From an uncultured Eubacteriales bacterium (GTDB lineage Bacteria > Bacillota > Clostridia > Peptostreptococcales > Anaerovoracaceae), in contig CADBJW010000002.1 of assembly GCA_902795135.1 (NCBI GenBank), forward strand, positions 23,529 through 87,528: 64,000 nucleotides of DNA, read 5' to 3'. Numbering within the stretch: position 1 is the first letter of the stretch; each line of letters begins with the position of its first letter. Below, piece by piece: positions 1,542 to 59,119 of this stretch. The position numbers were made by a program, and so were the translations under genes. The notes below the pieces were generated by a model. The model was not told the origin of the DNA. It ran no database searches and was given only the letters and a program-made list of their open reading frames with translations.

Positions 1542-3014
1542 TTAATCCTCCTCCGGATTCATGACTTTCTTAATGTTATTTGAAACTTTCTTTACGGATT
1601 CTTCTTTTGGTACGGAGACGAACAAAGGCCGGTTCATACCCATACTCCAGGTGCCCAGTTCTGCATCATCTCCGTCGATGCACTGACGCTTAATCGTCCA
1701 TTCCGGCATGTCGTCCAGCTGCATTCTGGCCAGCTCTGCCATTTCCTTCTGGCTCATACTCGTCTGCATATCGACTCCGACGGCTTCCAGAATCTCCGTG
1801 TAATTGGCAACCAGCGTCTTCTTGCTGGTGCACTTTTCGAGCAATGCCTTCATGACCTTCTGCTGGTTTCGGATCCTTTGCTCGTCTTCGTCCTTAAAGG
1901 CTTTTCGCTCGCGCAGATACCAAAGGGCATAGGTCCCGTGCATATGGTGCCAGCCCTTGTTAAAGTGCCATCCTTTGACGGAGGAATAGAAATCGATATC
2001 GTTGTAAACATCGATTCCGCCAACGGCATCCACCAGCTTTACGAGCATCTTGAAATTGACCCGGGCATAGTAATTGATATCCACGTTCAGCCAATCTTCA
2101 ATGGTCATAATGGTTTCATCAATTCCATAGACTCCGGAATGGGTCAGCTTATCCATTTCCCCATTCATATGCAGAGGAACGTAAGAATCCCTCGGCATGG
2201 AGGTGAGCAGGATCGTGTGGGTATTTGGATTGACCGTCACGATCATGTTTACGTCACTGCGGGCAACGTCAGAAATCTCGCCTCGGCTGTCGATTCCTGA
2301 AATCAGTACATTGAAGGAATCATGAAGTACGTCGATGTTATCGCTGCTTTCATAAGGCAGTTTCACGGTGATTTTATGGATGACTTTGGTTTCTTTTTTG
2401 AACCCCTGGATGATGTCATCTGTCATATCGTATTCCGGATCACTGATGAAGAGGATGTTGTCCTGCTTGATTCCCGTAAGGGATACCAGCTTTTCTCCGG
2501 CGTCCATACATCCGGTGGTCTCTTCCAGCGTCATATCGACACTGGATTCCAGCTTTTGTTTTGCCTGTGCATAGGTGTCTTTGCCGCTCTTGACGGAGTA
2601 TACGGTCTGCCCTTCGATGTCATCCAGATCCTCGTAGACGCTGTCCTTAAGTACCACCACGTCATAGGTGATGGTCTGGTTCATCTTGGCGCTGATGATT
2701 TCCATTGTCTTATAGGTATCGTACGCGAAGTAACTCCCAACGCAGGAGCAAACAATCATCACGCCACATAGGATGGCTCCAATCAGACGTTTCTTGCTCT
2801 TTGGTTTTCGGTCGTTGATCAGCCAGATCATAAGGCAGTCAATGACAATGATTCCCGCTACCAGGGCGACGATGTATTTGCCCGGCAGGATGTCCAAAGT
2901 CAGGACAAATGCGATCAGCATGATTTCGATGACGAGCACTGCAATCATCAAAATCGAATGACCTGCCGAGGTTGGCATAATATGTAATTTTCTGCTTTTA
3001 GTATTCTCTCTCAT
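1542..3014 (-). CDS. LCP (LytR-CpsA-Psr) family cell-wall glycopolymer transferase, paralog 1
   Basis: 490 aa with an N-terminal TM segment. LCP core: SFNVLISGIDSRG...SDVNMIVTVNPNTHTILLTSMPRDSYV...DKLTHSGVYG...VNFKMLVKLVDAVGGIDV. Confidence 0.85.
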   Translation of the reverse strand: MRENTKSRKLHIMPTSAGHSILMIAVLVIEIMLIAFVLTLDILPGKYIVALVAGIIVIDCLMIWLINDRKPKSKKRLIGAILCGVMIVCSCVGSYFAYDTYKTMEIISAKMNQTITYDVVVLKDSVYEDLDDIEGQTVYSVKSGKDTYAQAKQKLESSVDMTLEETTGCMDAGEKLVSLTGIKQDNILFISDPEYDMTDDIIQGFKKETKVIHKITVKLPYESSDNIDVLHDSFNVLISGIDSRGEISDVARSDVNMIVTVNPNTHTILLTSMPRDSYVPLHMNGEMDKLTHSGVYGIDETIMTIEDWLNVDINYYARVNFKMLVKLVDAVGGIDVYNDIDFYSSVKGWHFNKGWHHMHGTYALWYLRERKAFKDEDEQRIRNQQKVMKALLEKCTSKKTLVANYTEILEAVGVDMQTSMSQKEMAELARMQLDDMPEWTIKRQCIDGDDAELGTWSMGMNRPLFVSVPKEESVKKVSNNIKKVMNPEED

Positions 3015-3022
3015 AGCTATTT

Positions 3023-3051
3023 ATTATATCGTATTCAGCCTTTTTCGTCTA
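3023..3051 (-). promoter_or_regulatory. Candidate sigma-A promoter of LCP paralog 1 (TAGACG-17-TATAAT), only 8 nt upstream of the ATG; possibly a leaderless mRNA
   Basis: rc of 3023-3028 is TATAAT and rc of 3046-3051 is TAGACG, with a 17-nt spacer. No Shine-Dalgarno sequence lies between the -10 and ATG 3014. Confidence 0.35.
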
Positions 3052-3075
3052 TACTTTTGGGGCATGGGCTGGGCT

Positions 3076-3151
3076 GGCTGGGTATTGAGGCAAGGGGCGG
3101 CGGGACTGTGCCCGCGCGCTGTCCTCATCGCCCCTTGCCCATCACCCAGCC
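3076..3151 (+). repeat. G+C-rich hairpin element A, a truncated relative of the 3882-4073 long-hairpin element
   Basis: GGCTGGGT 3076-3083 pairs with ACCCAGCC 3144-3151. GCAAGGGGCG 3090-3099 pairs with CGCCCCTTGC 3129-3138. Loop box 3108-3131 matches 3894-3917 at 23/24 positions. Confidence 0.7.
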
Positions 3152-3230
3152 ACACAAAAAATGAACCGTCTCTTGATATAAAAAATGCTGTTTCTTTAAG
3201 CCTTGCATGGCAAAGCTTTTGCTTTCTTCT
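3131..3230 (+). repeat. Direct-repeat tail, copy 1, ending in a terminator-like hairpin plus T-rich run upstream of the lipoprotein gene
   Basis: By-eye alignment to 4075-4173, roughly three quarters identical. Shared string: TTGATA(T)AAAAAATGCTGTT..TTTAAGCCTTGCAT.GCA..GCTTTT. Hairpin is 3198-3206/3210-3218 with one mismatch, followed by TTGCTTTCTTCTCTTTT. Confidence 0.6.
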
Positions 3231-3274
3231 CTTTTGTGATAAAGTAAAGTCAGTAATGGACGGAGGTGAAGTAT

Positions 3275-3820
3275 ATGAAACGTTTGACATATTTATTGGT
3301 TTCAGGATTGCTCATGATTGGGCTTGTCATTGGTGCCTGCGGATGCGGGTCATCCGGGGACGATAGCGAAAGTGCGGCTTCCCTTAGCGATGCGGCTTCT
3401 ACCGAAGCGGAAGCGAACACAACCAGTCTGGACCATTTCATGGGCGGCTGGGCAACAAGCGACGACCGCAATGGTTGCAACATCGTTGCTTTTGGGGAAG
3501 AGAGCGGCATGATCCGCGTAGAGTTTGCCGGAATCCCGGGCGGTGGATATTATATTATGTTTAATCCGGACGACATCACGTTCGATGGCGACACCATGAC
3601 CTGTGTCAACGGCGTTGCCACTACGGATGGACCCGACGCTACCGATGTGACCTTGACCGCCATTCCTTACGATGGGGTGCCGGGCGACTATCAATTCCAG
3701 CTCGCAAGTGAAACACTGGGATTGGAAAATGATATCCAAAACACCTACCACTACACCAAAGTGACAGACACCGCCGACGAGCTAGACGATTGGATTGATC
3801 AGAACTACAGCTTCGACTAA
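3275..3820 (+). CDS. Small secreted lipoprotein of unknown function
   Basis: GGAGG at 3262-3266 lies 8 nt before ATG 3275 (the ORF track starts at GTG 3266). Signal peptide plus lipobox: MKRLTYLLVSGLLMIGLVIGAC-GCGSSGDD. I recognise no family. Confidence 0.7.
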   Translation: MKRLTYLLVSGLLMIGLVIGACGCGSSGDDSESAASLSDAASTEAEANTTSLDHFMGGWATSDDRNGCNIVAFGEESGMIRVEFAGIPGGGYYIMFNPDDITFDGDTMTCVNGVATTDGPDATDVTLTAIPYDGVPGDYQFQLASETLGLENDIQNTYHYTKVTDTADELDDWIDQNYSFD

Positions 3821-3881
3821 ATGTGCCAAAAGGGGCGGTTCTTTTTGACATATTTTGAGTGCTTCGTGATATGGGCAACAA

Positions 3882-4073
3882 GCTGGCGAAACCGTGCCTG
3901 CGCGCTGTCCTCATCGCTGACGATCACAACGGCTCATTCACAGAGAATCGAACTCCGCCGAAACTCGGGACTACGTCCCTCAGACAGTCGGCGGAGTTTT
4001 GCTATTCTCTTTGCTCGTCTCGCCGGTGATCGTGACAGCTCCTGCGGATGCACCCTGGCACGGTCCCGCCAGC
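3882..4073 (+). repeat. Long-hairpin element copy B1 (~190 nt); candidate structured ncRNA or REPIN/ERIC-like palindromic repeat
   Basis: Nested helices: 3882-3888/4067-4073, 3891-3898/4057-4064, 3916-3919/4036-4039, 3921-3927/4026-4032, 3930-3933/4022-4025, 3942-3948/4004-4010 and 3951-3960/3989-3998. The apical loop is 28 nt. Homologous to rc of 4174-4372. Confidence 0.75.
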
Positions 4074-4074
4074 C

Positions 4075-4173
4075 GCTTCCCCATCGCCCAGCTACTCAAA
4101 AGGAAAAAACCATCCCTATTGATAAAAAAATGCTGTTCATTTAAGCCTTGCATTGCAGGGCTTTTTTATTTTT
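4075..4173 (+). repeat. Direct-repeat tail, copy 2 (homologous to 3131-3230), containing a rho-independent terminator
   Basis: Same conserved string as copy 1. See the terminator feature at 4143-4173. Confidence 0.6.
4143..4173 (+). terminator. Rho-independent terminator, plus strand; probable end of the lipoprotein / B1 transcript
   Basis: AAGCCTTGC 4143-4151 pairs with GCAGGGCTT 4155-4163 (one G-U pair, 3-nt loop). It is followed by TTTTATTTTT. Confidence 0.7.
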
Positions 4174-4372
4174 GCGGGGAGGGGCACGTGATGGCCGGGT
4201 GCATTCCGCAGATGCAGCCGCGGTCAGACGCGATGAGAGCAAGGAGAATCGCAAAGGCCTGGACACTGTCTGAGCGGAGCGAGTTTGTCCAGGTCTCGAT
4301 TCTCTGCGAAGGAGCACAGCTGACCGCCTGCAGCGAGGACAAGCACCCGGCCATCAGGGGCACCTCCCCCGC
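4174..4372 (-). repeat. Long-hairpin element copy B2 (~200 nt), inverted relative to B1
   Basis: Helices: GCGGGGAGG 4174-4182 with CCTCCCCCGC 4363-4372, GATGGCCGGGTGC 4190-4202 with GCACCCGGCCATC 4343-4355, GCGGTCAG 4220-4227 with CTGACCGC 4320-4327, GAGAATCG with CGATTCTC, and GGCCTGGACA 4256-4265 with TGTCCAGGTC 4286-4295. Its reverse complement aligns to B1 with conserved loop motifs. Confidence 0.75.
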
Positions 4373-4464
4373 AGGAAGTAAAAAGGCTGTTCCACCGTCC
4401 ACTGGACGCTTCCACTGACGCCGAGGCCCGTTCGGGTTCGAGTCCCTCCATCTTACGGCTCGTC

Positions 4465-4506
4465 AAAAAAAGAAACAGGCGCCTTGCAGGCGTCTATTTC
4501 TTTTTT
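4465..4506. terminator. Bidirectional rho-independent terminator; ends tRNA-Arg on the minus strand and is usable on the plus strand
   Basis: AGGCGCC 4477-4483 pairs with GGCGTCT 4489-4495 (loop TTGCA). It is flanked by an A-run at 4465-4471 and a T-run at 4497-4506. Confidence 0.8.
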
Positions 4507-4581
4507 GGCGAGGCACCTGGGACTCGAACCCAGAACCAACAGATTCGAAGTCTGGTACTCTATCCGTTGAGCTAGTGCCCC
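4506..4581 (-). tRNA. tRNA-Arg (anticodon TCG)
   Basis: 76 nt by hand folding: GGGGCAC acceptor, D-arm GCTC/GAGT, anticodon loop CTTCGAA, T-arm CTGGG-TTCGAGT-CCCAG, encoded CCA. Confidence 0.9.
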
Positions 4582-4623
4582 GTGTTATACGTCTGTTAAA
4601 ATGATTGTCTCATGGTCAGGACA

Positions 4624-6234
4624 TCAAAGTGCCTGGCCCGTGCTTTCTTCTGTGGTGTCCGTATCCGTTACGTCGGTTGAGTCCGTTTCACCCGTCGCTT
4701 CCGTGGACTCCTGTGTTTCCGAAGCCTTTGATTCTTTCTGCTCCTGCAGAGTCTGCGTGTTGTCTACCGGGAACATGGTGTCGTGGATTGCTTGTTTTGC
4801 CTTCTCTACCGTTTCCTCATCCGGGAATACACAGGATAAGGTCTGACCACCCATACTGAAGCAAGGGGCGCCACCCGTGGTGCCGATAATATTCGTGCGG
4901 GTCACGGTCCACTTCTTCATATCGTGGAGCTGCATTTTCGCCAGCTTCCTGAGATCATTGTCGGTCATATCGGTCTTCATTTCATCCTCTACAACATTGA
5001 GAATGCTTGAATACCTGGTCAGGATAACCTTACTGCTGGTTACCTTCTTGATCAGCGCTTGCAAAACGATTTGCTGGTTTTCATTCCGCTTCATATCGCC
5101 CATGGCGAAGGACTTTCTCTCACGGGCAAACCAAAGGGCGTAGTGCCCGCCCATGTGATGCCAGCCCTTTTTATAGTGCCAGCCTTTGACGGAAGAATAG
5201 AAGTCCTCATCACTGTAAACGTCGATCCCGCCGATGGCGTCAATGAGATCGCAAAGCATGGAGAAGTTGATGCGAATCGTGTAGTTGATATCGATATCGA
5301 GATAATCTTCAATGGTCGCCTTTGTTTCCTCTTCCCCATAAATACCGGAGTGAGTCAGCTTGTCCTTTTCCCCATAGGAATGCAGTGTTACATAACTGTC
5401 TCTCGGAATGGACGTAAGCAGGACCTGCCTGGTCGTCGGGTTGACCGTCATGATCATATTGACGTCACTGAGTCCGCCCTGATCGATGGTGCCCCAGGAG
5501 TCGATTCCGGAAATGAGAACATTAAAGGAATCCTTCGTCACTTCAACACGTTTGCTGTTATCGTTGGCTCTCTTTTGGACTTTGATTTTGTAAATCGCCT
5601 GGGTGTTATCCTTGTAGCCCTCGATGTTCTGCTTTAGAATTTTGTCCTCCGATTTGGAGAGCAAAATCAGTTCGTCATGGGTCTCACCGTTTTCATCAAC
5701 CAGCTTATGCCCTGCTTCCAGGAGGTTGGATGTCTTCACATAGTTCACTTCCTCCTTGGTAACAAGACGTTCCTTTGCCTCGGTAAGCTGCTTGGACCGC
5801 ATGCCCACCACGTTCACATCTTTGCCTTTGATGTCGTGAACATCCTGGTAGCTGCCATCCTTCAGCGCAACGACCTGATAATATTCCCAGGATCCGCGCA
5901 GCGTACTGATCTTTTCCAGGGTATCGTAGGTGTTGTACATATAGTAATCGCCGACCAAAAGCAGATTCATCATGAATACAACGATGATCATTCCGATCAA
6001 AGACTTAATGTCCCGCCGTTTCTTGCTGTTGAACATGATCAGTGCGATCACGTCTACCGCAACAAACAAGGCGATGACCGCCAGCAAATACTTAAACGGC
6101 AGAATGTCCAGTGCCAATAAGAACAGCAAAAACAGTGCCTCAGCGAATAATATCAGCAGAACGAAAATGCTTTGGCTGATCTTATCGGGCAATATATGAA
6201 AATTTCTGAAAAACCTTCTTTTAGAATCTTTCAT
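4624..6234 (-). CDS. LCP (LytR-CpsA-Psr) family protein, paralog 2, with an acidic Thr/Glu-rich C-terminal tail
   Basis: 536 aa with the same architecture as paralog 1: SFNVLISGIDSWG...SDVNMIMTVNPTTRQVLLTSIPRDSYV...DKLTHSGIYG...DAIGGIDV. Its ATG overlaps the thrS stop (TAATG). Confidence 0.85.
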   Translation of the reverse strand: MKDSKRRFFRNFHILPDKISQSIFVLLILFAEALFLLFLLALDILPFKYLLAVIALFVAVDVIALIMFNSKKRRDIKSLIGMIIVVFMMNLLLVGDYYMYNTYDTLEKISTLRGSWEYYQVVALKDGSYQDVHDIKGKDVNVVGMRSKQLTEAKERLVTKEEVNYVKTSNLLEAGHKLVDENGETHDELILLSKSEDKILKQNIEGYKDNTQAIYKIKVQKRANDNSKRVEVTKDSFNVLISGIDSWGTIDQGGLSDVNMIMTVNPTTRQVLLTSIPRDSYVTLHSYGEKDKLTHSGIYGEEETKATIEDYLDIDINYTIRINFSMLCDLIDAIGGIDVYSDEDFYSSVKGWHYKKGWHHMGGHYALWFARERKSFAMGDMKRNENQQIVLQALIKKVTSSKVILTRYSSILNVVEDEMKTDMTDNDLRKLAKMQLHDMKKWTVTRTNIIGTTGGAPCFSMGGQTLSCVFPDEETVEKAKQAIHDTMFPVDNTQTLQEQKESKASETQESTEATGETDSTDVTDTDTTEESTGQAL

Positions 6235-9085: not shown

Positions 9086-10474
9086 TTAATAGAGACCTGT
9101 CAGCTCTGAAATACGTGTGCTGATTTCCTGAACAGTATCCGTCGGCGTGTACCCGCCCTGGTCAAAGAACTGTTCATGGAGTTTTGAAACGTTGTTTGAC
9201 AAATTGATCGGTGGTCCGTACCAGGCATATCCTGCCCCTGCCGAACCGGTCCAACTGCCTACGTCGTACGGGAATCCCGTTGTGCTATCCGTCATATCAT
9301 AGAGTTTGAATTTCAAAACCATCTTCATGATTTCGGAAGAGGACATATTGGTTCCGACCTCTGGCAATACCTTTCGGGTCACCCGGAACATCTTGAAGTA
9401 TCCTGAATGTTTGAGTTTCTTGAATGTCTCGCTAAAGACGACCTTCATTCTCTCATTTCTTCGGTAGTCGCCAGTAGCTGCATCCTTACGGATTCTGGAA
9501 TAGGTAACCGCCTGTACGCCGTTCAGTGTCTGTTTGCCCGGTCCTTTGATCTTGTCATCCGGTCCGCCAACATTTTTGGCGGTTTCCTTGATGTACTTAT
9601 TCATTTCATCGATTTCTGATTCCTTGACATTGATCTCAATGCCGCCGACTGCATCGATGGTATCCGCTACGGTTTTCCAGTTGATGATCACGACCTTATC
9701 GATATTAAGGTCCAGATTCTTGTTCAAAGCGTACAGAGACTGCTGCGCACCGCCATAATGATAGGCGTGGGTGATTTTGTCCAGTCCCTGATCGCCAACA
9801 TCCAGCAATGTGTCTCTAAATACGGAGAACATTTTTACTTCATTGGTTTCGTTATTGATGCTGGCAACGATGATTGCGTCACTTCTGGCCGCCGACTGAT
9901 CGTCATCGGCTCTGGCATCGGTTCCCAGCACTGCGATGTTCGTGTATTTATCCAGCTGGGTCGCAACTTCCGGATTGATGGCGATGGCACTCTTATCGAT
10001 GTCCACATCATCCATACTGATCAAGGTTCCGAACAGAAGCAAGAGTCCTCCCAGGACAACGACGCCTGCTGCCAGTGCCGCGATAACGGTTCCGCGAATC
10101 GTCCTCTTTGCTTTGCTCCCTGGTCCCTTAAATTCAAATTTTGGCCATCTGTTTTTCCCTTTGTTTTTGCGGCCAAAACTGGTTTTATTGTGGGAGCGGT
10201 TTTCCTTAAAGCCGCTTTCTTCACGGGAAAACAGCCTTTCTTTTAAGGAACGTGTCTCAGGTTCTTCCGGTTCGGCTTGCCGTTTTTCACGCATGGCAAG
10301 ATACTCTTCGTGCTCCCGATGTCTCCGCTGCTCCTCCAGCGCTTCCCGGTGCTCCCTTTGAGCCTTCTCGCGGTAGATTCTGCGCATCTCCGACTCGCCG
10401 TAGGTATGCTCCTCGTTATGTTTATGTTCTCTTAAAGAAAGATATTCCTGATACTGCCGTTCTCGTTCGTCCAT
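9086..10474 (-). CDS. LCP (LytR-CpsA-Psr) family protein, paralog 3, with a highly charged cytoplasmic N-terminal extension
   Basis: 462 aa. About 120 aa of Arg/Glu/His-rich sequence precede the TM segment. LCP core: AVLGTDARADD...SDAIIVASIN...FRDT...DKITHAYHYGG...DAVGGIEINV. Confidence 0.8.
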   Translation of the reverse strand: MDERERQYQEYLSLREHKHNEEHTYGESEMRRIYREKAQREHREALEEQRRHREHEEYLAMREKRQAEPEEPETRSLKERLFSREESGFKENRSHNKTSFGRKNKGKNRWPKFEFKGPGSKAKRTIRGTVIAALAAGVVVLGGLLLLFGTLISMDDVDIDKSAIAINPEVATQLDKYTNIAVLGTDARADDDQSAARSDAIIVASINNETNEVKMFSVFRDTLLDVGDQGLDKITHAYHYGGAQQSLYALNKNLDLNIDKVVIINWKTVADTIDAVGGIEINVKESEIDEMNKYIKETAKNVGGPDDKIKGPGKQTLNGVQAVTYSRIRKDAATGDYRRNERMKVVFSETFKKLKHSGYFKMFRVTRKVLPEVGTNMSSSEIMKMVLKFKLYDMTDSTTGFPYDVGSWTGSAGAGYAWYGPPINLSNNVSKLHEQFFDQGGYTPTDTVQEISTRISELTGLY

Positions 10475-10496: not shown

Positions 10497-12008
10497 TTAT
10501 AAGTCTTTCGTGTATCCTAGATAAACGTAGTAGCCGCTATCCAGCTTGCCCCATCCGTTTTCTTTGGATACGATATACAGATTTTCACCTTCTTCAAAGG
10601 TACCTACTTTCTTATATCTCGATCCCGGACCCGTTCGGTAATTTACGGAGTCGGTGGTTACCGCGTTGTAAGACGCAATTTTCTTCAGGTGCTTGCTCTT
10701 GATAAAGTATCCATTTTTGAGCTTGCTCCAGTCTCCGGACTTGCCGACGACTTCCACCTTCTTGCCTCCCTTATAAGTTCCGACCTTTTCGTAATTGGTT
10801 CCCGGACCCGTTCGATAATTCACTCTTGATTTCGTCTTTGCCCGATATGGGGTGACGGAGGTCAGCGCATAATCCCCTTCTGTGTTCACTTCGGACTTCG
10901 CTTCTGATTTCGCTGCGGTATCGGAAGAGCCCGTAGCCTTTTTGGATCCACCCTGTCCGTTGTCAAAGATGTAGTTCATATCGATGGAACCGCTGAGTCC
11001 ATTGACTTTGCCGCTGGAGCTATACTGCCACATCCAGTACTCTCCCGGATAAGTGGTTGCCGTTCCACGGGTCGTATAATTTGCCAACCAGATCCGGTAC
11101 TGATCCTGCAGCTTGTTGTAGTCCAGATAGTTATTGAGCATCGTATAATTGGCATAAATCATCGGCGTATATCCTGCATCTTCGATCCTGTCGCAGAATG
11201 CCTGACAAATCTTCGTCGATGTTCCATCGGCTGCCAGCTTCCGAAGCTTTGCGGAGTTCAGTCTTCCTGCCGCGTTGGTCTCGTAGTCGAATACGACCGG
11301 AAGGTTGATCTTTGACTTATAGTTTTTCAGGACCTTGATCGTATAGTCGGCTTCTTTCTGGGCCTCTTCTACGGATGTGGCCTGTGAGAAGTGGTAGACA
11401 CCAACCTTGATCCCTGCATTGTAAGCACGGTTTACATTATTGCTGAACTTGCTGTCCATATTCAGACTGAAGTGGCTGAGGCTTGTATATCCTGACCGGA
11501 TGATGACGTGGGTAACGCCTGCTGTCTTAACCTTTTGCCAGGAAGCATCTGAAATATTTCCCTGCCACCATGAAATGTCCAGACAATTGTATCTCTTGAA
11601 TTTGCCGTATTTCTCCGGTGTCTGGGCTTTACCCAGGCCGGAAACACCGCAACCTACCGCATTCATATTGCTGCTCATTTCATCCATGCTGGTGTCACTG
11701 ATGCCTTCCGCGTTTTCATCCATCTTCTGAATGAACTTATCGACTTCATCCTGTTCGACTTCTTTCTCCTGGAGATTGCCGCTGTCATTCACTTCATAGT
11801 AATGATACAGTTCCGGGTCTTCCACCAGTTCTTCTGTGTCGCCTTGGTTCTTGAGTTCTTCGTAGTTCTTGCCTTCCAGATCTTCATAAGACACGATCTC
11901 ATCCGACCCGGCATAAGCTCGTTCCGCGAGAATCGGCATAAACGACATGGAAAAAGCCGTCACGCCTGCCAGTGCGAAAATCATGAATGCTCTGACTGAT
12001 TGTTTCAT
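10497..12008 (-). CDS. Secreted GH25 muramidase (lysozyme) with two C-terminal SH3-like repeats
   Basis: 503 aa with a signal peptide. GH25 core: LDISWWQGNISDASWQKVKTAGVTHVIIRSGYT...VGVYHFSQA. Two repeats match VNYRTGPG..Y.KVGT...W.KL..GY. Confidence 0.8.
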   Translation of the reverse strand: MKQSVRAFMIFALAGVTAFSMSFMPILAERAYAGSDEIVSYEDLEGKNYEELKNQGDTEELVEDPELYHYYEVNDSGNLQEKEVEQDEVDKFIQKMDENAEGISDTSMDEMSSNMNAVGCGVSGLGKAQTPEKYGKFKRYNCLDISWWQGNISDASWQKVKTAGVTHVIIRSGYTSLSHFSLNMDSKFSNNVNRAYNAGIKVGVYHFSQATSVEEAQKEADYTIKVLKNYKSKINLPVVFDYETNAAGRLNSAKLRKLAADGTSTKICQAFCDRIEDAGYTPMIYANYTMLNNYLDYNKLQDQYRIWLANYTTRGTATTYPGEYWMWQYSSSGKVNGLSGSIDMNYIFDNGQGGSKKATGSSDTAAKSEAKSEVNTEGDYALTSVTPYRAKTKSRVNYRTGPGTNYEKVGTYKGGKKVEVVGKSGDWSKLKNGYFIKSKHLKKIASYNAVTTDSVNYRTGPGSRYKKVGTFEEGENLYIVSKENGWGKLDSGYYVYLGYTKDL

Positions 12009-12021
12009 TTCCGTTCTCCCT

Positions 12022-13923
12022 CTACTTCTTTAATACCTTAAGCGGTACCCAATAACCACTGCTGAGTTGTGCCCAGTTATTATAAAGGCCGATTACTTTA
12101 ACTTTCTTTCCTTTTTTGTACGTTTTCTTTTTTATGTAAGAAGTTCCAGGACCGGTTCTGCTCTTATACTTAGAGCGCATCTTGGTCGTGTAACTTTTTT
12201 TGACTGCCGGTTTATAAATCGGGTAAATCTTCTTGGCTTTGGTGCAGCTTTTCTTGATCCAGTAGCCGTTGCTGAGCTGTACCCATTTTTTGGTCTTGTT
12301 GATGACGTAAAGCGTCTTGCCTTTCTTGACTTTCCCCTTCTTCTTGTATTTCTTACCCGGGCCGGTTCTGTAGGATGTCTTTTTCTTTACCTTTACGACT
12401 TTCAGCCATGCACGGCCCTGTCCATCGAAGGAATACTTTTTGACTCCAAACCAGTGGGAGGAGCTTTTGTACATCTCACCATTGCTGCTGAAGCCGTAGA
12501 TGTAGCTGCCGATCTTGGCAATGCCGGTCTGCAGCGCGCCGGTCTTGGTTGCGTAGTATCTCTTACCGTTCAGTGTTACCCAGGCGGACTTGACCGTATT
12601 GCCCTTTTTCGTCTTGATATAATAATAAGTTTTTCCGTCCTTGCCCTTTGCTGTAACGATTTTAGAAGGTACATCCTTGACGACAGGCGCTGCTTTCGTC
12701 GTACCGCGGTTCATATAGGACCGCATGCTGCTGTGGCTGATTACCAGAAGGTTCGTATCAACTCTGGTTTTGATCCCGTCCACACTGCCGCTGCTGCCGC
12801 ACTGCCAGATGCTGTATTTGCTTCCATATCCGTATTTCGTATAGTTGCTGCTGGAAATCGGCCATCTGGCGACCCAAAGGTCGTATCCTTCCTTGTGAAG
12901 ACTGTCCCCGTTGAGGTATTTTTCAAACCAGTTCAGGTTTGCGTAAATGCCCGCTTTGTATCCGCTCGCCGTTACTCTGGAGCAGAATGTACGTGCGAAC
13001 TTTGTGATTTTCGTCTTGCTTTTGGTGGATTTCAGAATGCTATTGTCTTCCAGGTCATAGTACACCGGATAATCCGGATGATGGCCCTTGAGCAGTCTCA
13101 GAGCGTGATTGGCTTCGCTTTTGGCGTCCGATTCGGATTTTGCATAGGAATAGAGATAGACACCATAAGGAATTCCCTTGCTTTCGCAGGCTTTTACATT
13201 TCTTGCGAACTTGCTGTCATCCTTTGAAGTGGTGTTTTTGCCATATCCACACCGAATGATGACAAAGTCCAGCTTGCCGCTCTTAACGACTTTCTTGACT
13301 TTATCCCAATTGATATCGCCCTGCCATACGCTGACATCGATTCCCTTGAGATATCCGCCGCTGCACGTAATGTAACCGTTTGTGTAGCTGGCTTTGAATC
13401 TCCAGGATTTGTTTCTGCTGGTTCCATAGGAAGAAGCTGCTGCAGAAAGGGGATTCCCGTTTTCTTCCATCTGTTCCTCGATGGTCGCGCCCATCTGTGC
13501 ATTGATGTTCTCAGCTTCTTCTGTTAGCTGCCCATCTTTGTACCGCCAACTGTCCGCTGTTTCTTCGGCATATTGCTCCGGATCTTCCGCAAGCAGTTCC
13601 TCGGTCAGAGGAGTTTCTTCGGTTGCCTCTTCACTTCCCAGATTCTCAGTCGGGTCAATGGCCGATTCTTCGGAAGCCTGCGCCGCGTCCTGCGGCTCCG
13701 CTTCCTGCCCGGCAGCTTCCGAGCTGGATGTTTCATCCTGCACTTCGCTGCTCGGCATGGTCGCTTCCGCACCGGACGGCTCCATTTGAACGGTTTCTGT
13801 TTCCTGCGCACTGCTGGTTTCGGTTACTGCTCCAAAGGCGTTCTGTCCAGTGAAAATTGTCGTTGCACACATCATGATCGTTAAAACACAGGCTGTCAGT
13901 TTTTTCATTCCATTAGAATTCAT
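12022..13923 (-). CDS. Secreted GH25 muramidase with cell-wall-binding repeats and two Lys-rich SH3-like repeats
   Basis: 633 aa. Signal peptide, an acidic Ser/Glu-rich linker, then GH25 core GIDVSVWQGDINWDKVKK...FVIIRCGYG...YGVYLYSYA. Has YY-type wall-binding repeats and two RTGPG SH3 repeats. GGAGG lies 9 nt before ATG 13923. Confidence 0.8.
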   Translation of the reverse strand: MNSNGMKKLTACVLTIMMCATTIFTGQNAFGAVTETSSAQETETVQMEPSGAEATMPSSEVQDETSSSEAAGQEAEPQDAAQASEESAIDPTENLGSEEATEETPLTEELLAEDPEQYAEETADSWRYKDGQLTEEAENINAQMGATIEEQMEENGNPLSAAASSYGTSRNKSWRFKASYTNGYITCSGGYLKGIDVSVWQGDINWDKVKKVVKSGKLDFVIIRCGYGKNTTSKDDSKFARNVKACESKGIPYGVYLYSYAKSESDAKSEANHALRLLKGHHPDYPVYYDLEDNSILKSTKSKTKITKFARTFCSRVTASGYKAGIYANLNWFEKYLNGDSLHKEGYDLWVARWPISSSNYTKYGYGSKYSIWQCGSSGSVDGIKTRVDTNLLVISHSSMRSYMNRGTTKAAPVVKDVPSKIVTAKGKDGKTYYYIKTKKGNTVKSAWVTLNGKRYYATKTGALQTGIAKIGSYIYGFSSNGEMYKSSSHWFGVKKYSFDGQGRAWLKVVKVKKKTSYRTGPGKKYKKKGKVKKGKTLYVINKTKKWVQLSNGYWIKKSCTKAKKIYPIYKPAVKKSYTTKMRSKYKSRTGPGTSYIKKKTYKKGKKVKVIGLYNNWAQLSSGYWVPLKVLKK

Positions 13924-57676: not shown

Positions 57677-57752
57677 TGGTGCCCAGACTCGGAATCGAAC
57701 CAAGGACACGGGGATTTTCAGTCCCCTGCTCTACCAACTGAGCTATCTGGGC
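57677..57752 (-). tRNA. tRNA-Phe (GAA)
   Basis: 76 nt by hand folding. Acceptor GCCCAGA, anticodon loop CTGAAAA, T-loop TTCGATT, CCA encoded. Confidence 0.9.
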
Positions 57753-57777
57753 ATACTTACGATTTCTATTTAGTTTA

Positions 57778-57854
57778 TGGTGGGCCATCGGGGACTCGAA
57801 CCCAGGACCTGCCGGTTATGAGCCGGACGCTCTAACCAACTGAGCTAATGGCCC
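57778..57854 (-). tRNA. tRNA with CAT anticodon; probably tRNA-Ile2 (lysidine) rather than Met
   Basis: 77 nt. Anticodon loop CTCATAA. The GGGCCAT...ATGGCCC-A-CCA acceptor and the body resemble Firmicute tRNA-Ile. It lacks the initiator-type three G-C pairs in the anticodon stem. Confidence 0.8.
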
Positions 57855-57885
57855 ACATTAGACCTGACGAGCAGGTCAGAAATAA

Positions 57886-57962
57886 TGGTCGGGGTGGCAG
57901 GATTTGAACCCGCGGCCCACTGGTCCCAAACCAGTTGCGCTACCAAACTGCGCTACACCCCG
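57886..57962 (-). tRNA. tRNA-Pro (TGG)
   Basis: 77 nt. Acceptor CGGGGTG, anticodon loop TTTGGGA, CCA encoded. Confidence 0.9.
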
Positions 57963-58001
57963 ATATTAAATTATTTCGTGAAAGACACGATTGAAACAAA
58001 T

Positions 58002-58077
58002 TGGCAGGGGCAGTAGGAATCGAACCCACGGCACGCGGTTTTGGAGACCGCTGCTCTACCAGCTGAGCTATACCCCT
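58002..58077 (-). tRNA. tRNA-Trp (CCA)
   Basis: 76 nt. Acceptor AGGGGTA, anticodon loop CTCCAAA. Confidence 0.9.
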
Positions 58078-58079
58078 AT

Positions 58080-58172
<93 letters not shown>

Positions 58173-58185
58173 AAACTAACAACAA

Positions 58186-58273
58186 TGGCGGAGAGGGTGG
58201 GATTCGAACCCACGGAGGTTTGACCCTCACTGGTTTTCAAGACCAGCACCATAAACCGCTCGGACACCTCTCC
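58186..58273 (-). tRNA. tRNA-Ser (TGA)
   Basis: 88 nt with a long variable arm. Anticodon loop CTTGAAA. Confidence 0.9.
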
Positions 58274-58328
58274 TCATGCTATACGTTTTGCAGTGTTCTC
58301 AGCCCTTCAGTCCCCAACCTGTAAAAAA

Positions 58329-58404
58329 TGGTGACCCATCGGAGATTCGAACTCCGGACACCTTGATTAAAAGTCAAGTGCTCTGCCGACTGAGCTAATG
58401 GGTC
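58329..58404 (-). tRNA. tRNA-Lys (TTT)
   Basis: 76 nt. Anticodon loop CTTTTAA. Confidence 0.9.
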
Positions 58405-58408
58405 ATAA

Positions 58409-58483
58409 TGGCTGGGGTAGCAGGACTCGAACCTACGCATGACGGAGTCAAAGTCCGTTGCCTTACCGCTTGGCTATACCCCA
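58409..58483 (-). tRNA. tRNA-Gln (TTG)
   Basis: 75 nt. 5' end TGGGGTATAGCCAAGCGGTAAGGCA, anticodon loop CTTTGAC. Confidence 0.9.
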
Positions 58484-58522
58484 TCGTGTTTTTATATAAA
58501 TTGTAAAAAATGTCAAAAAAAT

Positions 58523-58599
58523 TGGCGAGCCCACAGGGATTCGAACCCCGGACACACGGCTTAGAAGGCCGTTGCTCTATCCAGCTGAGCTATGAGCCC
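58523..58599 (-). tRNA. tRNA-Arg (TCT)
   Basis: 77 nt. Anticodon loop CTTCTAA. Confidence 0.9.
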
Positions 58600-58607
58600 G
58601 CAACTGT

Positions 58608-58681
<74 letters not shown>

Positions 58682-58686
58682 AAAAT

Positions 58687-58761
58687 TGGAGCGGAAGACG
58701 AGATTCGAACTCGCGACCCTCGCCTTGGCAAGGCGATGCTCTACCCCTGAGCCACTTCCGC
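58687..58761 (-). tRNA. tRNA-Gly (GCC)
   Basis: 75 nt. Anticodon loop TTGCCAA. Confidence 0.9.
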
Positions 58762-58779
58762 ATATCATATTTATTATAT

Positions 58780-58864
58780 TGGTCGAGGGAGATGGATTCG
58801 AACCATCGAAAGCTCAGCTAACGGATTTACAGTCCGCCCCCTTTGGCCACTCGGGAATCCCTCG
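58780..58864 (-). tRNA. tRNA-Tyr (GTA)
   Basis: 85 nt with a long variable arm. Anticodon loop CTGTAAA. Confidence 0.9.
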
Positions 58865-58885
58865 ACATTCTTTCGCGCATTGAGT

Positions 58886-58914
58886 ATTCTACCACATCTG
58901 TTTCAAATATTCAA
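58886..58914 (-). promoter_or_regulatory. Candidate internal sigma-A promoter inside the tRNA operon (TTGAAT-17-TGgTAGAAT), upstream of tRNA-Tyr
   Basis: rc of 58909-58914 is TTGAAT and rc of 58886-58891 is TAGAAT, preceded by TGG (extended -10). It lies in the 86-nt Thr-Tyr spacer, 22 nt before the tRNA-Tyr 5' end. Confidence 0.5.
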
Positions 58915-58950
58915 TGACATTTTTGGTAAGAACTGAAACCTTACCGTTTA

Positions 58951-59025
58951 TGGAGCTGGCGGAGGGAATCGAACCCCCAACCTGCTGATTACAAATCAGC
59001 TGCTCTACCGTTGAGCCACGCCAGC
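58951..59025 (-). tRNA. tRNA-Thr (TGT)
   Basis: 75 nt. Anticodon loop TTTGTAA. Confidence 0.9.
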
Positions 59026-59043
59026 ACGTTTTGTCGGTTTTTA

Positions 59044-59119
59044 TGGTGGGCGCTACAGGGCTCGAACCTGTGACCCCCTGCTTGTAAGGCAGGTGCTCTC
59101 CCAGCTGAGCTAAGCGCCC
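59044..59119 (-). tRNA. tRNA-Val (TAC)
   Basis: 76 nt. Anticodon loop CTTACAA. Confidence 0.9.

What the first reader, a model, noticed from the sequence alone, without database searches (positions are those of the whole stretch)
3882..4372. Two inverted copies of a ~190-nt long-hairpin element with helix-preserving substitutions, in a G+C-rich non-coding island
About 685 nt between the lipoprotein stop (3820) and tRNA-Arg (4506) contain no credible CDS. The stretch is G+C rich: 112/180 over 4201-4380 by hand count. 3882-4073 folds into one long imperfect hairpin, with seven nested helices listed in the feature. 4174-4372 folds into a second long hairpin, and its reverse complement aligns with the first. 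Four kinds of motif are conserved between the copies. One is CTGTCCTC(AT)CGCTG. The second is CTGCGGA(A)TGCACCC. The third is the helix AGAGAATCG/CGATTCTC. The fourth is the apical loop AAACTCG...CTCAGACAG. The apical 10-bp helix differs completely in sequence but pairs in both copies: AACTCCGCCG/CGGCGGAGTT versus GGCCTGGACA/TGTCCAGGTC. Likewise CGATCAC/GTGATCG is replaced by GCGGTCAG/CTGACCGC. Conserved loops combined with compensatory helix replacement indicate a selected secondary structure. That could be a structured RNA, or a REPIN/ERIC-like hairpin repeat mobilised or bound as DNA. I do not recognise it as RNase P, SRP, 6S, tmRNA, a T-box or any riboswitch I know.
Basis: seen in the sequence. 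Interest (0 to 1): 0.72.

Follow-up and report, generated by a model that had tools for sequence, protein, structure and literature searches.

The report
New family of long rod hairpins
Two (really three) copies of a roughly 200-base sequence that folds into one long hairpin lie between a lipoprotein gene and a tRNA gene of an uncultured rumen bacterium; relatives in other gut bacteria keep the fold by paired mutations, so the shape is under selection, but it matches no catalogued RNA or mobile element and I could not tell whether it acts as RNA or as DNA.

Summary
Hairpin A (3866-4087, +) and hairpin B (4176-4369, read on the - strand) are homologous, about 100-bp imperfect rods (z -7.3 and -7.6). 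Every motif, coordinate and the 112/180 G+C count were verified. C is an internal-deletion derivative; another strain still has it full length.

I found independent relatives in a metagenome contig (L005) and a goat-gut Bacillota MAG (L039). They keep the same spacing (TGTCCTC-N29-AGAGAATCGA-N9-AAACTCG) and the same loops, but have different stem sequences. Of 63 pairs, 25 carry compensatory changes, against 8.6 in shuffles (0/500).

The apical module (stem-AAACTCG-small hairpin-CTCAGACAGT-stem) recurs in two viral or prophage contigs, on different scaffolds.

It is not protein-coding, has no Rfam hit, and fails the tests for MITE, REPIN, attC, 6S and sso. The ends are the least conserved part.

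RNA versus single-stranded DNA is unresolved. G.U-type and A.C-type mismatches are equal (7:7), and no promoter or terminator arrangement is consistent across copies. The copies sit beside intrinsic terminators, and some sit near mobile elements.

Best reading: a new, rare family of selected hairpin elements that behaves like ERIC-type intergenic hairpin repeats. Its conserved apex is probably a protein recognition site.

The parts
3866..4087 (+). Rod hairpin A, full length (about 100 bp imperfect helix).
   Evidence: MFE -105.5 kcal/mol, z -7.29. Covariance-model hit 3871-4084, 216 bits.
3951..3998 (+). Apical module of A. It consists of a 10-bp variable helix (3951-3960 / 3989-3998) closing AAACTCG (3961-3967), a small GGGAC/GTCCC cap, and CTCAGACAGT (3979-3988).
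   Evidence: AAACTCG and CTCAGACAGT are invariant in A, B, L004, L005, L039, L062 and L086, while the closing helix differs in every copy.
3905..3950 (+). Conserved 5'-arm blocks of A: CTGTCCTCATCGC (3905-3917) and AGAGAATCG (3942-3950, pairs with 4003-4011). The spacing TGTCCTC-N29-AGAGAATCGA-N9-AAACTCG is fixed.
   Evidence: The spacing is identical in A, B and L005. L039 has a one-base gap in the N29 spacer and a compensated helix variant.
4042..4055 (+). Conserved 3'-arm block CTGCGGATGCACCC of A (it faces the TGTCCTC block).
4088..4175 (+). A-rich linker plus intrinsic terminator (stem 4143-4163, T-run to 4175). It lies downstream of A and abuts B.
   Evidence: Terminator scan. It is 80% identical to the module after copy C.
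4176..4369 (-). Rod hairpin B. It is homologous to A when read on the - strand. Its apical helix is 4256-4265 / 4286-4295.
   Evidence: MFE -110.5 kcal/mol, z -7.58. Covariance-model hit 4170-4376 (-), 186 bits.
3075..3152 (+). Short copy C. It has the basal stem and the TGTCCTC block of a rod, with the interior and part of the 3' arm deleted.
   Evidence: Fold z -5.49. It is homologous to both ends of A. Strain contig L004 has a full-length rod at this position, 86% identical to A.
3153..3225 (+). Linker plus terminator-like hairpin (3198-3220) after C, directly upstream of the lipoprotein RBS.
   Evidence: Direct repeat D1, blastn. 22 nt of it (3201-3222) are deleted in strain L004.
3035..3045 (+). 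Flank block TCAGCCTTTTT (a terminator 3'-half plus T-run) facing rod C. Mirror-image blocks lie at 3181-3191 (-), 4126-4136 (-) and 4380-4390 (-).
   Evidence: 4 of the 8 near-matches in the 64 kb lie at this locus, against 1.3 expected by chance. The related block AGTAAAAAGG(A)CTGT adjoins the rods in L005 and L039, where it is part of a complete bidirectional terminator.
3275..3820 (+). Orphan lipoprotein gene bracketed by the C module and the A module (context).
   Evidence: No Pfam family. Homologues occur only in the same species.

Best explanation
The locus holds three copies (A, B, and the deletion derivative C) of a previously uncatalogued family of quasi-palindromic 'rod' elements about 200 nt long, from uncultured rumen or gut Bacillota.

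Shown:
- The rod fold, the positions of its internal loops and bulges, a sequence-conserved 9-bp helix (AGAGAATCG/CGATTCTCT), and an apical module are all maintained across copies, while the other helices are replaced by compensatory changes. The apical module is a 3x3 loop AAC/CAG, a 2-bp step, a UCA bulge and a variable cap.
- The element therefore works as a folded single strand, not as linear duplex sequence and not as a coding sequence.

Inferred:
- It behaves like ERIC-, Correia- or REPIN-type intergenic hairpin repeats. It is copied at the DNA level as a segment (rod plus neighbouring terminator pieces), in either orientation, into terminator-proximal intergenic DNA.
- It is then carried into read-through or 3'-UTR transcripts.
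- The conserved apex and 9-bp helix serve as the docking site for an unidentified trans-acting protein, which could be a nuclease, recombinase or RNA-binding protein.
- The cluster in this window arose by local duplication and inversion. C arose by slipped deletion inside the palindrome.
For: Structure and covariation: (93% paired against 80%; 25 compensated pairs against 8.6; 0/500 shuffles).

Independent members in other organisms and other loci:
- L005, next to an IS transposase and a group II intron.
- L039, after rpmF and its terminator in the goat-gut MAG RGIG2569.

Fixed spacing and conserved loops.

The apical module recurs on other scaffolds. In L062 it sits in a multi-branched structure (z -8.3). 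In L086 it tops an A+T-rich 120-nt rod (z -5.9) about 390 nt beyond a phage integrase gene.

Non-coding.

Behaviour at the DNA level:
- No strand bias in wobble-type mismatches (7 G.U-type against 7 A.C-type).
- Both strands fold.
- Copies occur in both orientations beside terminators.
- Terminator-half blocks flank the rods symmetrically.
- Three different indels were seen among about seven strain contigs: the C deletion, loss of the terminator in L004, and a 411-bp deletion in L051 that ends exactly at the base of A.
- Several assemblies break inside rods.
- REPINs show that compensatory change is also common in DNA-propagated hairpins (PMC3116915).
Against: - No empty site, target-site duplication or conserved terminus was found. 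The basal stems are the most variable part, the opposite of MITE, ERIC and REPIN elements, so transposase-type mobility is not supported.
- Copy number is low: 3 copies, all within 1.3 kb, and none elsewhere in the 64 kb.
- A and B are only about 70% identical, so nothing points to recent spread.
- No transposase, integrase, RAYT or reverse-transcriptase gene was found in the window stretch that was scanned (1-24 kb).
- Conserved interior motifs on a variable closing stem are the classic signature of a stand-alone structured RNA.
- The multi-branched L062 relative looks more like RNA than DNA.
- No expression data were available.
- The partner protein is pure inference.
Confidence: 0.4

Rival explanations
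1. A stand-alone structured non-coding RNA gene: a rod-shaped, protein-binding small RNA comparable in shape to 6S, SRP or Y RNA. It would be transcribed from one strand. The window copies would be paralogues, some of them decaying.
For: - Conserved internal loops and apex on variable, covarying helices, with a variable closing stem.
- Read on the strand opposite to A, the rods in L005, L039 and L062 are followed within about 10-55 nt (L005 7, L039 about 16, L062 about 50 nt) by a strong intrinsic terminator. That strand also folds 8-18 kcal/mol better and has purine-rich loops.
- Read on the strand of A, copies A and C each have their own downstream terminator. Five of six copies are co-directional with the upstream gene.
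- The L062 relative is multi-branched.
Against: - The two strand assignments contradict each other. Neither gives a consistent promoter-rod-terminator unit across copies.
- The promoter scan is at background level.
- G.U-type and A.C-type mismatches are equal, 7:7. The probability is about 0.004-0.04 if A.C made up only 1/6 to 1/4 of such mismatches, as I assume for single-strand RNAs.
- No Rfam family matches, even at E<=10.
- The family is very rare in 596 Gb of genomes and in the JGI metagenomes.
Confidence: 0.33
2. A site that works as folded single-stranded DNA for a mobile or formerly integrated element. Comparable sites are integron attC sites, the CTX-phage attP hairpin, single-strand origins (sso) of rolling-circle replicons, and the packaging signal of filamentous phages. 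On this reading the lipoprotein gene bracketed by C and A is a cassette-like cargo next to a tRNA integration hotspot.
For: - Symmetric wobble use.
- An orphan gene flanked by directly repeated rod modules.
- The locus adjoins tRNA-Arg and an inverted tRNA 3'-half remnant.
- The L086 rod lies just beyond a phage integrase gene.
- L005 lies among an IS and a group II intron.
- The overall sso and attC logic fits: conserved short boxes on a structure-conserved, sequence-variable hairpin.
Against: - No integrase, relaxase or Rep gene in the part of the window that was scanned (1-24 kb).
- No attC R/L boxes and no sso CS-6 (TAGCGT/A).
- No promoter-like hexamers in the stem.
- No match in the plasmid or phage collections.
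- Conservation is strongest at the apex, not at the base, where attC-type recombination happens.
Confidence: 0.15
3. Functionless palindromes. On this reading they arose by inverted duplication next to terminators and are kept self-complementary by arm-to-arm templated correction (quasi-palindrome repair), not by selection.
For: - The palindromy extends into the flanks: T-run and CAGCC on one side, GGCTG and A-run on the other.
- Within-species changes turn G.T and A.C mismatches into perfect pairs on both strands.
- The locus is structurally unstable.
Against: Templated correction should erase asymmetries. Instead, the same asymmetric internal loops, bulges and non-palindromic motifs are kept at fixed spacing in copies about 30% diverged and from different organisms: TGTCCTC opposite CTGCGGA, the AAC/CAG loop, and the UCA bulge. 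The apical module is also kept on unrelated scaffolds.
Confidence: 0.08

Closest known systems
ERIC / IRU elements (127-bp imperfect palindromes of Enterobacteria) and similar transcribed hairpin repeats (Correia, RUP, BOX)
   Same: - Intergenic, imperfect long palindrome that folds as one hairpin.
- Found in either orientation near gene ends.
- Size variants made by internal deletion or insertion (C against L004).
- Secondary structure preserved by paired changes.
- Plausibly co-transcribed with neighbouring genes.
(General features of this class: PMC2229807, PMC3184786, listed, not read; otherwise my own knowledge.)
   Different: - No sequence similarity.
- Firmicutes, not Enterobacteria.
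- About 200 nt, not 127.
- Low copy number and clustered.
- The termini are the least conserved part and the apex the most conserved.
- No TA or other target duplication.
REPINs (REP doublets mobilised by RAYT transposases)
   Same: Hairpin-forming inverted doublet. Compensatory changes are common on the two sides of the hairpin, and the fold is proposed for ssDNA or mRNA (PMC3116915).
   Different: - REPINs have two highly conserved REP sequences near the ends and a variable spacer. Here it is the reverse.
- REPINs occur in tens to hundreds of dispersed, near-identical copies with a RAYT gene in the genome.
- Here there are 3 local copies at 70% identity, and no RAYT in the part of the window that was scanned.
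Rod-shaped protein-binding RNAs (6S RNA, SRP RNA, Y RNA)
   Same: Irregular hairpin of about 200 nt with conserved internal loops and apex, and a variable closing stem.
   Different: - No Rfam hit to any of them.
- No large central bubble: the largest loop is about 6x7 nt.
- Several copies at one locus.
- Extremely patchy distribution.
- No strand bias in wobble pairs.
Folded single-strand DNA sites (integron attC, ssoA-type single-strand origins)
   Same: Structure is conserved while most of the sequence is free. Short conserved boxes and extra-helical bases sit at fixed places. An orphan gene is bracketed by two copies in direct orientation.
   Different: - No R''/L''/L'/R' boxes and no CS-6.
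- No integron integrase or Rep nearby.
- Conservation is concentrated at the apex.
- The rods are longer than attC sites.
Group IIC introns (as a parallel in location only)
   Same: IIC introns sit just downstream of intrinsic terminator hairpins (PMC1702495). In L005 a group II intron lies on one side of a bidirectional terminator and the rod lies on the other. (Its class was not determined; the IIC-like label rests only on its position just after the terminator.)
   Different: The rod has no group II domains (Rfam D1-D4 and D5-D6 models hit only the true intron), no ORF, and is far too small to splice.

Membership tests
Any Rfam 15 family (including 6S, SRP, tmRNA, RNase P, T-box, riboswitches, HEARO, ROOL, GOLLD) | Covariance-model match at or near the gathering score | tested here: not met
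   cmscan of 2500-5200 at E<=10 gives only tRNA-Arg plus noise (miRNA models at 18-21 bits on copy C). The whole window at gathering thresholds gives tRNAs only. The L005 and L062 rods have no hit.
MITE (non-autonomous IS derivative) | Conserved terminal inverted repeats shared by copies | tested here: not met
   The basal stems of A, B, L005 and L039 share no sequence and differ in length. Conservation is interior.
MITE (non-autonomous IS derivative) | Target-site duplication flanking the element | tested here: not met
   No direct repeat at the rod boundaries in A, B, C or L005. The flanks are mirror-image (T-run on one side, A-run on the other), not direct.
REPIN / BIME | Two conserved REP units (GTAG- or CGTC-tagged) in inverted orientation, many dispersed copies | tested here: not met
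   Only 3 copies, all within 3035-4390. Neither blastn, the covariance model nor the inverted-repeat scan finds others in the 64 kb. The ends are not conserved.
REPIN / BIME | A RAYT (Y1 transposase) gene in the genome | not testable with these tools
   Only the 64-kb window is available, of which 1-24 kb was scanned with Pfam. No transposase was seen there.
ERIC / IRU | Sequence similarity to the 127-bp ERIC consensus, in Enterobacteria or Vibrio | not tested
   No ERIC consensus or ERIC-bearing record was compared here. The plasmid and phage collections give no match to the rod. Different phylum. The resemblance is in behaviour only.
Integron attC site | R''(RYYYAAC)...R'(GTTRRRY) boxes at the base of the hairpin, with an IntI integrase or a same-orientation array | tested here: not met
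   No such boxes at the bases of A, B or C on reading the sequence. B is inverted relative to A and C. No integrase in 1-24 kb.
ssoA-type single-strand origin | CS-6 (TAGCGT/A) in the terminal loop | tested here: not met
   TAGCGT and TAGCGA are absent from 3800-4400 on both strands.
6S RNA | Large central bubble flanked by long helices; match to the 6S models; one or two genes per genome | tested here: not met
   No 6S hit at E<=10. The largest internal loop is about 6x7 nt. There are three clustered copies.
Protein-coding gene / small ORF | Conserved reading frame, with substitutions concentrated at third codon positions | tested here: not met
   L005 has an in-frame stop, and its loop length differs by 8 nt relative to B and L039 and by 2 nt relative to A. 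Variable columns by phase are 21/20/25 (p=0.76). The mis-called 75-aa ORF has relatives only in its own cluster.
New 'rod hairpin' family defined here | TGTCCTC-N29-AGAGAATCGA-N9-AAACTCG-(cap)-CTCAGACAGT ... CGATTCTC ... CTGCGGR on a rod of about 100 bp, with covarying helices | tested here: met
   A, B, L004-up, L005 and L039 score 134-216 bits with model R1. With only 5 distinct members, the definition is provisional.

The most novel reading that the evidence does not exclude
The rods, together with the L062 and L086 structures, are scaffolds for a new protein-recognised RNA (or single-stranded DNA) module: stem-AAACUCG-cap-CUCAGACAG-stem. The module is shared between chromosomes of uncultured rumen Bacillota and prophage or viral contigs. 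It could be a phage-host interaction element (a decoy, an immunity or packaging signal, or a recombination signal). It could also be a protein-less mobile element that, like group IIC introns, settles next to intrinsic terminators.
Probability: 0.22. Interest if true: 0.7.

Novelty: new variant of a known kind. Interest (0 to 1): 0.45.

Why it matters
If the rods are a real functional class, they add a well-supported structured element from the poorly studied uncultured rumen Bacillota. Support already includes 25 compensated base pairs from only three divergent sequences. The conserved apical module is shared with phage-derived contigs.

The family is also a clean test case for a recurring problem: telling a structured RNA from a DNA-propagated hairpin repeat when both show compensatory change. 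Practically, such 200-bp palindromes break assemblies (several contigs end inside them) and attract spurious ORF calls, such as the 75-aa 'protein' P0001. The element would not change any major concept unless a partner protein or a mobility mechanism is found.

Tried and rejected
Searches that found nothing or only chance hits:
1. The genome-contig scan for GAATCGA..AAACTCG..CTCAGACAG found 0. A second, looser scan gave 44 loci, about the number expected by chance. Only L039 was real by covariance-model score.
2. The metagenome scan gave one real locus (L005) and one chance hit in coding DNA (L006).
3. Four viral scans were run. Only L062 and L086 carry the apical module inside a hairpin. L087 is coding DNA. 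L089 and L090 are chance hits.
4. blastn against the plasmid and phage collections found no match.
5. I fished for mis-called ORFs over family members. The 75-aa ORF found only its own cluster. A six-frame concatenated profile drowned in 8000 low-complexity candidates and returned nothing.

Ideas considered and rejected:
6. A coding or type-I-toxin reading: no conserved ORF.
7. A link to the neighbouring proteins. The lipoprotein is unrelated to the ORF upstream of L005, and that ORF lies inside a group II intron.
8. A promoter inside or upstream of the rods. The scan is at background level. Hand-read -10-like hexamers (TATACT, TTTACT) lack -35 partners.
9. A K-turn reading of the apex. The non-bulged strand lacks the G.A step.
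10. Insertion of the rod into a terminator loop. The order of the terminator halves around the rods is the reverse of what that predicts.
11. Using MFE asymmetry to pick a strand. The strand opposite to A is 8-18 kcal/mol more stable. This is not driven by G.U pairs, and it conflicts with the gene-orientation evidence.
Full report
**1. The observation**

The stretch from 3821 to 4505 has no credible gene. None of the ORFs in it has a Pfam family. tRNA-Arg lies at 4506-4581 on the - strand. The lipoprotein gene really starts at the ATG at 3275 and ends at 3820.

The hand count of 112/180 G+C for 4201-4380 is exact. The rods are 61-65% G+C in a window that averages 48.6%.

As single strands, 3865-4090 (+) folds into one long irregular hairpin at -105.5 kcal/mol (z = -7.29). 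4165-4385 (-) folds at -110.5 kcal/mol (z = -7.58). None of 200 dinucleotide shuffles folds as well in either case. The reverse complement of B aligns with A at about 70% identity, and the only length difference lies in the apical cap.

**2.

There is a third copy, C.
- It is a 78-nt hairpin at 3075-3152 (z = -5.5), upstream of the lipoprotein gene.
- blastn shows that C equals A with the interior removed. 3099-3131 matches 3885-3917 (88%), and 3130-3220 matches 4072-4165 (80%).
- The second match extends well beyond the hairpin. A and C are both followed by the same A-rich linker and the same terminator-like hairpin (3198-3220 and 4143-4163). The repeated unit is therefore rod + linker + terminator, and two such units bracket the lipoprotein gene in direct orientation.
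- B abuts the A terminator from the other side in inverted orientation.

No other copy, and no other long inverted repeat, exists in the 64 kb. Rfam finds only tRNAs in the window.

Over 1-24 kb the neighbourhood is housekeeping cell-wall and translation genes: three LytR-CpsA-Psr paralogues, LDH, ThrRS, Ddl, GH25 lysozymes, a Mur ligase and ValRS. No transposase, integrase or reverse transcriptase was seen there.

**3. Strain variation**

Contigs of the same species were recovered through the exact lipoprotein sequence and its near relatives. These are L001-L004 and L051-L053, from rumen and other metagenomes. They show three structural polymorphisms.
- **L004.** It has a full-length rod where the window has the short C. 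That rod is 86% identical to A, with two compensated changes in the apical helix (AACTCCGCCG/CGGCGGAGTT becomes AAATCCACCG/CGGTGGATTT). L004 also lacks 22 nt of the terminator in front of the lipoprotein gene. C is therefore a deletion derivative, not a designed short form.
- **L051.** It lacks 3461-3871. The deletion lies between two 12-nt direct repeats, TGGGCAACAAGC, and the second repeat is the first 12 nt of rod A.
- **Point differences in B.** They convert a G.T and an A.C opposition into perfect pairs, one on each strand.

Several assemblies end inside a rod (L002, L003, L004, L039, L086).

The lipoprotein itself is an orphan. Only same-species sequences were found among 5.8 billion proteins.

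**4. Relatives elsewhere**

- A strict pattern found nothing in 185,579 species genomes.
- The same pattern found one true relative in the JGI metagenomes. This is L005, 1915-2105 on the - strand.
- A second, looser genome scan gave 44 loci, about the number expected by chance. Covariance model R1 accepted only L039 (134 bits). L039 is from Bacillota bacterium RGIG2569, a goat-jejunum MAG.

The contexts differ. L039 follows rpmF and its bidirectional terminator and is cut by the contig end. L005 follows a strong bidirectional terminator. On the other side of that terminator sits a group II intron (Rfam D1-D4 models, RVT_1 and GIIM domains). Group IIC introns are known to settle just after terminators (PMC1702495). 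Downstream of the L005 rod is a DDE transposase gene.

Both relatives keep the following:
- TGTCCTC, AGAGAATCGA (AGCGAATCG in L039, compensated on the other arm), AAACTCG, CTCAGACAGT, CGATTCTC and CTGCGGR.
- The spacing TGTCCTC-N29-AGAGAATCGA-N9-AAACTCG. It is identical in A, B and L005; L039 has a one-base gap in the N29 spacer.
- The pairing of the other helices, although their sequences are entirely different. The apical helix is GTCCTGCGCA/TGCGCAGGAC in L005 and GGACCCGAAC/GTTCGGGTCC in L039.

**5. Covariation**

The test used the alignment of A, B and L005 with the RNAalifold structure (63 pairs).
- 93.0% of cells are standard pairs, against 80.1 +/- 1.9% after shuffling the partners.
- 25 pairs carry changes on both sides, against 8.6 +/- 2.2 in shuffles. 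None of 500 shuffles reaches the observed value on any measure.
- Sliding the partners by 1-3 columns drops pairing to 32-44% and double changes to 1-4.
- Adding L039 and L004 gives 20 compensated pairs among the 42 core pairs.

The fold is selected or otherwise actively maintained. Three sequences from three loci are few, so the exact numbers are provisional. The signal is not marginal.

**6. Not coding**

Two or three frames are open across each rod, as expected for 60% G+C DNA. In L005 the frame that is open in A, B and L039 carries a TAG, and the cap length differs by 8 nt. Variable columns are spread evenly over the three phases (21/20/25, p = 0.76). The 75-aa ORF that gene callers place on B (P0001) has no relative outside its own 90% cluster.

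**7. Anatomy**

From base to apex, on the strand of A:
- A variable basal stem, 20-35 bp, with no sequence conservation.
- An internal loop with YTGTCCTCRYYGC facing CTGCGGR.
- A covarying helix of 16 bp.
- A pyrimidine-rich 6x7 internal loop (TCNYTC / TCNNYTC).
- The sequence-conserved 9-bp helix AGAGAATCG/CGATTCTCT, followed by a 3-nt bulge on the 3' strand.
- A 10-bp helix that differs in every copy.

Invariant columns are about equally frequent in paired (51%) and unpaired (48%) positions.

The apical module alone recurs in two IMG/VR contigs.
- In L062 it caps one arm of a multi-branched structure of about 260 nt that follows a terminator (z = -8.3; no Rfam hit).
- In L086 it caps an A+T-rich 120-nt rod (z = -5.9). 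That rod lies 390 nt beyond the integrase gene at the end of a temperate-phage contig, whose other genes include a repressor, a Sak recombinase, NinB and RusA.

A chance 17-base match would not be framed by complementary stems of 8-16 bp. I take these two as genuine instances of the module on other scaffolds. A third candidate, L087, lies in coding DNA and I reject it.

**8. RNA or DNA?**

The evidence conflicts.

For RNA on the strand of A:
- A and C have a proper terminator 45-60 nt downstream.
- Five of six copies are co-directional with the upstream gene.

For RNA on the opposite strand:
- In L005, L039 and L062 the rod is followed within about 10-55 nt (L005 7, L039 about 16, L062 about 50 nt) by a strong bidirectional terminator.
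- The block next to the rod base, AGTAAAAAGG(A)CTGT, is shared by B, C, L005 and L039. It is only a decayed half-terminator in the window copies.
- That strand folds 8-18 kcal/mol better.

Against any single-strand RNA:
- Neither orientation gives a consistent unit, and no promoter stands out.
- On the model-guided alignment of eight distinct sequences, G.U-type and A.C-type oppositions number 7 and 7 distinct events. In RNAs read from one strand, G.U normally far outnumbers A.C (my own knowledge). If A.C were 1/6 to 1/4 of such events, the chance of seeing 7 or more out of 14 is 0.004-0.04. The events are few and not fully independent.
- The rods are framed by mirror-image blocks (CAGCC-TTTTT ... 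AAAAA-GCTG). Four of the eight near-matches to ACAGCCTTTTT in the 64 kb lie at this locus, against 1.3 expected. The same stem type also occurs in ordinary terminators (31131 in the window; L005 13-64), so part of this may simply reflect the local terminator vocabulary.

REPINs show that compensatory change is common in hairpins that spread as DNA (PMC3116915). Covariation alone therefore does not prove an RNA.

**9. Interpretation**

I commit to the following with modest confidence (0.4). This is a new, rare family of selected hairpin elements that behaves like ERIC-, Correia- or REPIN-type intergenic repeats.
- It is copied as DNA segments into terminator-proximal intergenic space in either orientation.
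- It is structurally unstable.
- It acts in a folded single-stranded state, as read-through or UTR RNA and/or as transient ssDNA.
- The conserved apex and 9-bp helix are the docking site of an unidentified protein.

What is shown: the fold, the covariation, the fixed anatomy, the non-coding nature, the multiple contexts, and the strain-level indels. What is inferred: DNA-level copying, co-transcription, and the protein partner.

The main rival is a stand-alone rod-shaped sRNA gene (0.33). It is favoured by the 'conserved interior, variable closing stem' pattern and by the multi-branched L062 relative. A folded-ssDNA site of a mobile or integrated element gets 0.15. It is suggested by the cassette-like orphan gene, the adjacent tRNA and tRNA remnant, the integrase next to L086, and the IS and intron next to L005. 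No diagnostic box or enzyme was found. Neutral palindromes kept by templated repair (0.08) do not explain the conserved asymmetric loops.

**10. Comparison with known families**

The element fails the tested defining features of these classes:
- MITEs (conserved termini, target duplication).
- REPINs (conserved REP ends, many dispersed copies).
- attC sites (R and L boxes, integrase).
- ssoA origins (CS-6).
- 6S RNA (central bubble, model match).
- Every Rfam 15 family.

It works most like ERIC-type hairpin repeats but is not a member of any of them. I rate it a new variant of a known kind (structured intergenic hairpin elements). Interest is moderate. The structural evidence is unusually clean for so few sequences, and the phage-shared apical module is intriguing. 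However, the family is tiny, the function is unknown, and orphan hairpin motifs are common.

**11. Limits**

- Both genome scans, the single metagenome scan and all three indexed protein searches are spent, so the family could not be enlarged further.
- The window's organism is not among the GTDB representative genomes that were searched: the first pattern, which matches the window itself, found nothing.
- No expression data could be consulted.
- The rest of the genome could not be checked for partner genes or further copies.

Noticed in passing
window 4425-4466 (+), next to terminator 4477-4495 and tRNA-Arg 4506-4581 (-): A diverged tRNA 3' half lies on the + strand: T-arm GGGTTCGAGTCCC plus an acceptor-like ...GGCTCGTCA. 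It is a mirror image of the 3' end of tRNA-Arg across the bidirectional terminator. ARAGORN and Rfam do not call it. It could be a remnant of a second tRNA gene or of an old integration (att) site.
   Followed up: partly
window 3449-3460 and 3872-3883; locus L051: A 12-nt direct repeat, TGGGCAACAAGC, occurs inside the lipoprotein gene and again at the first bases of rod A. One strain contig (L051) has lost the 411 bp between the two repeats. This truncates the lipoprotein to 148 aa and fuses it to the rod.
   Followed up: yes
window 3201-3222; locus L004 1-275: In strain contig L004 the terminator hairpin just upstream of the lipoprotein RBS is deleted (22 nt), and the upstream rod is full length. 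In the window the rod is truncated and the terminator is intact. Expression of the lipoprotein may therefore differ between strains.
   Followed up: partly
window 3275-3820 (+): The lipoprotein (signal peptide with lipobox IGAC) is a species-restricted orphan. It is one of the few genes on the + strand in a window where almost all long ORFs are on the - strand.
   Followed up: partly
window 1542-3014, 4624-6234, 9086-10474 (all -): Three LytR-CpsA-Psr paralogues lie within 9 kb. The first two are about 70% identical at the DNA level over about 425 nt and flank the rod/tRNA/lipoprotein insert. Two GH25 lysozyme-like genes follow at 10497-13923.
   Followed up: no
L005 2113-2158 and 2165-3989 (+): A group II intron (RT/maturase ORF 2645-3928; Rfam D1-D4 and D5-D6 hits) begins right after a 20-bp bidirectional terminator hairpin, the typical IIC-type location. 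The ORF of 173 aa called on the opposite strand (2175-2696) lies inside the intron RNA and is probably spurious.
   Followed up: partly
L062 245-500 (+): A multi-branched structure of about 260 nt (z -8.3) with no Rfam match lies in an IMG/VR contig, between a terminator and a nitroreductase-like gene. It contains the rod family's apical module and a second hairpin with an AAACTCG loop. It may be a separate uncatalogued structured RNA.
   Followed up: partly
window 4191-4418 (+); protein P0001: Public gene calls place a 75-aa 'protein' on the + strand of rod B. It exists only in this species' cluster and is almost certainly a false ORF in G+C-rich palindromic DNA.
   Followed up: yes
window 57677-59119 (-): A cluster of 14 tRNA genes lies on the - strand (Val, Thr, Tyr, Gly x2, Arg, Gln, Lys, Ser x2, Trp, Pro, Met, Phe). 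It is unrelated to the finding.
   Followed up: no
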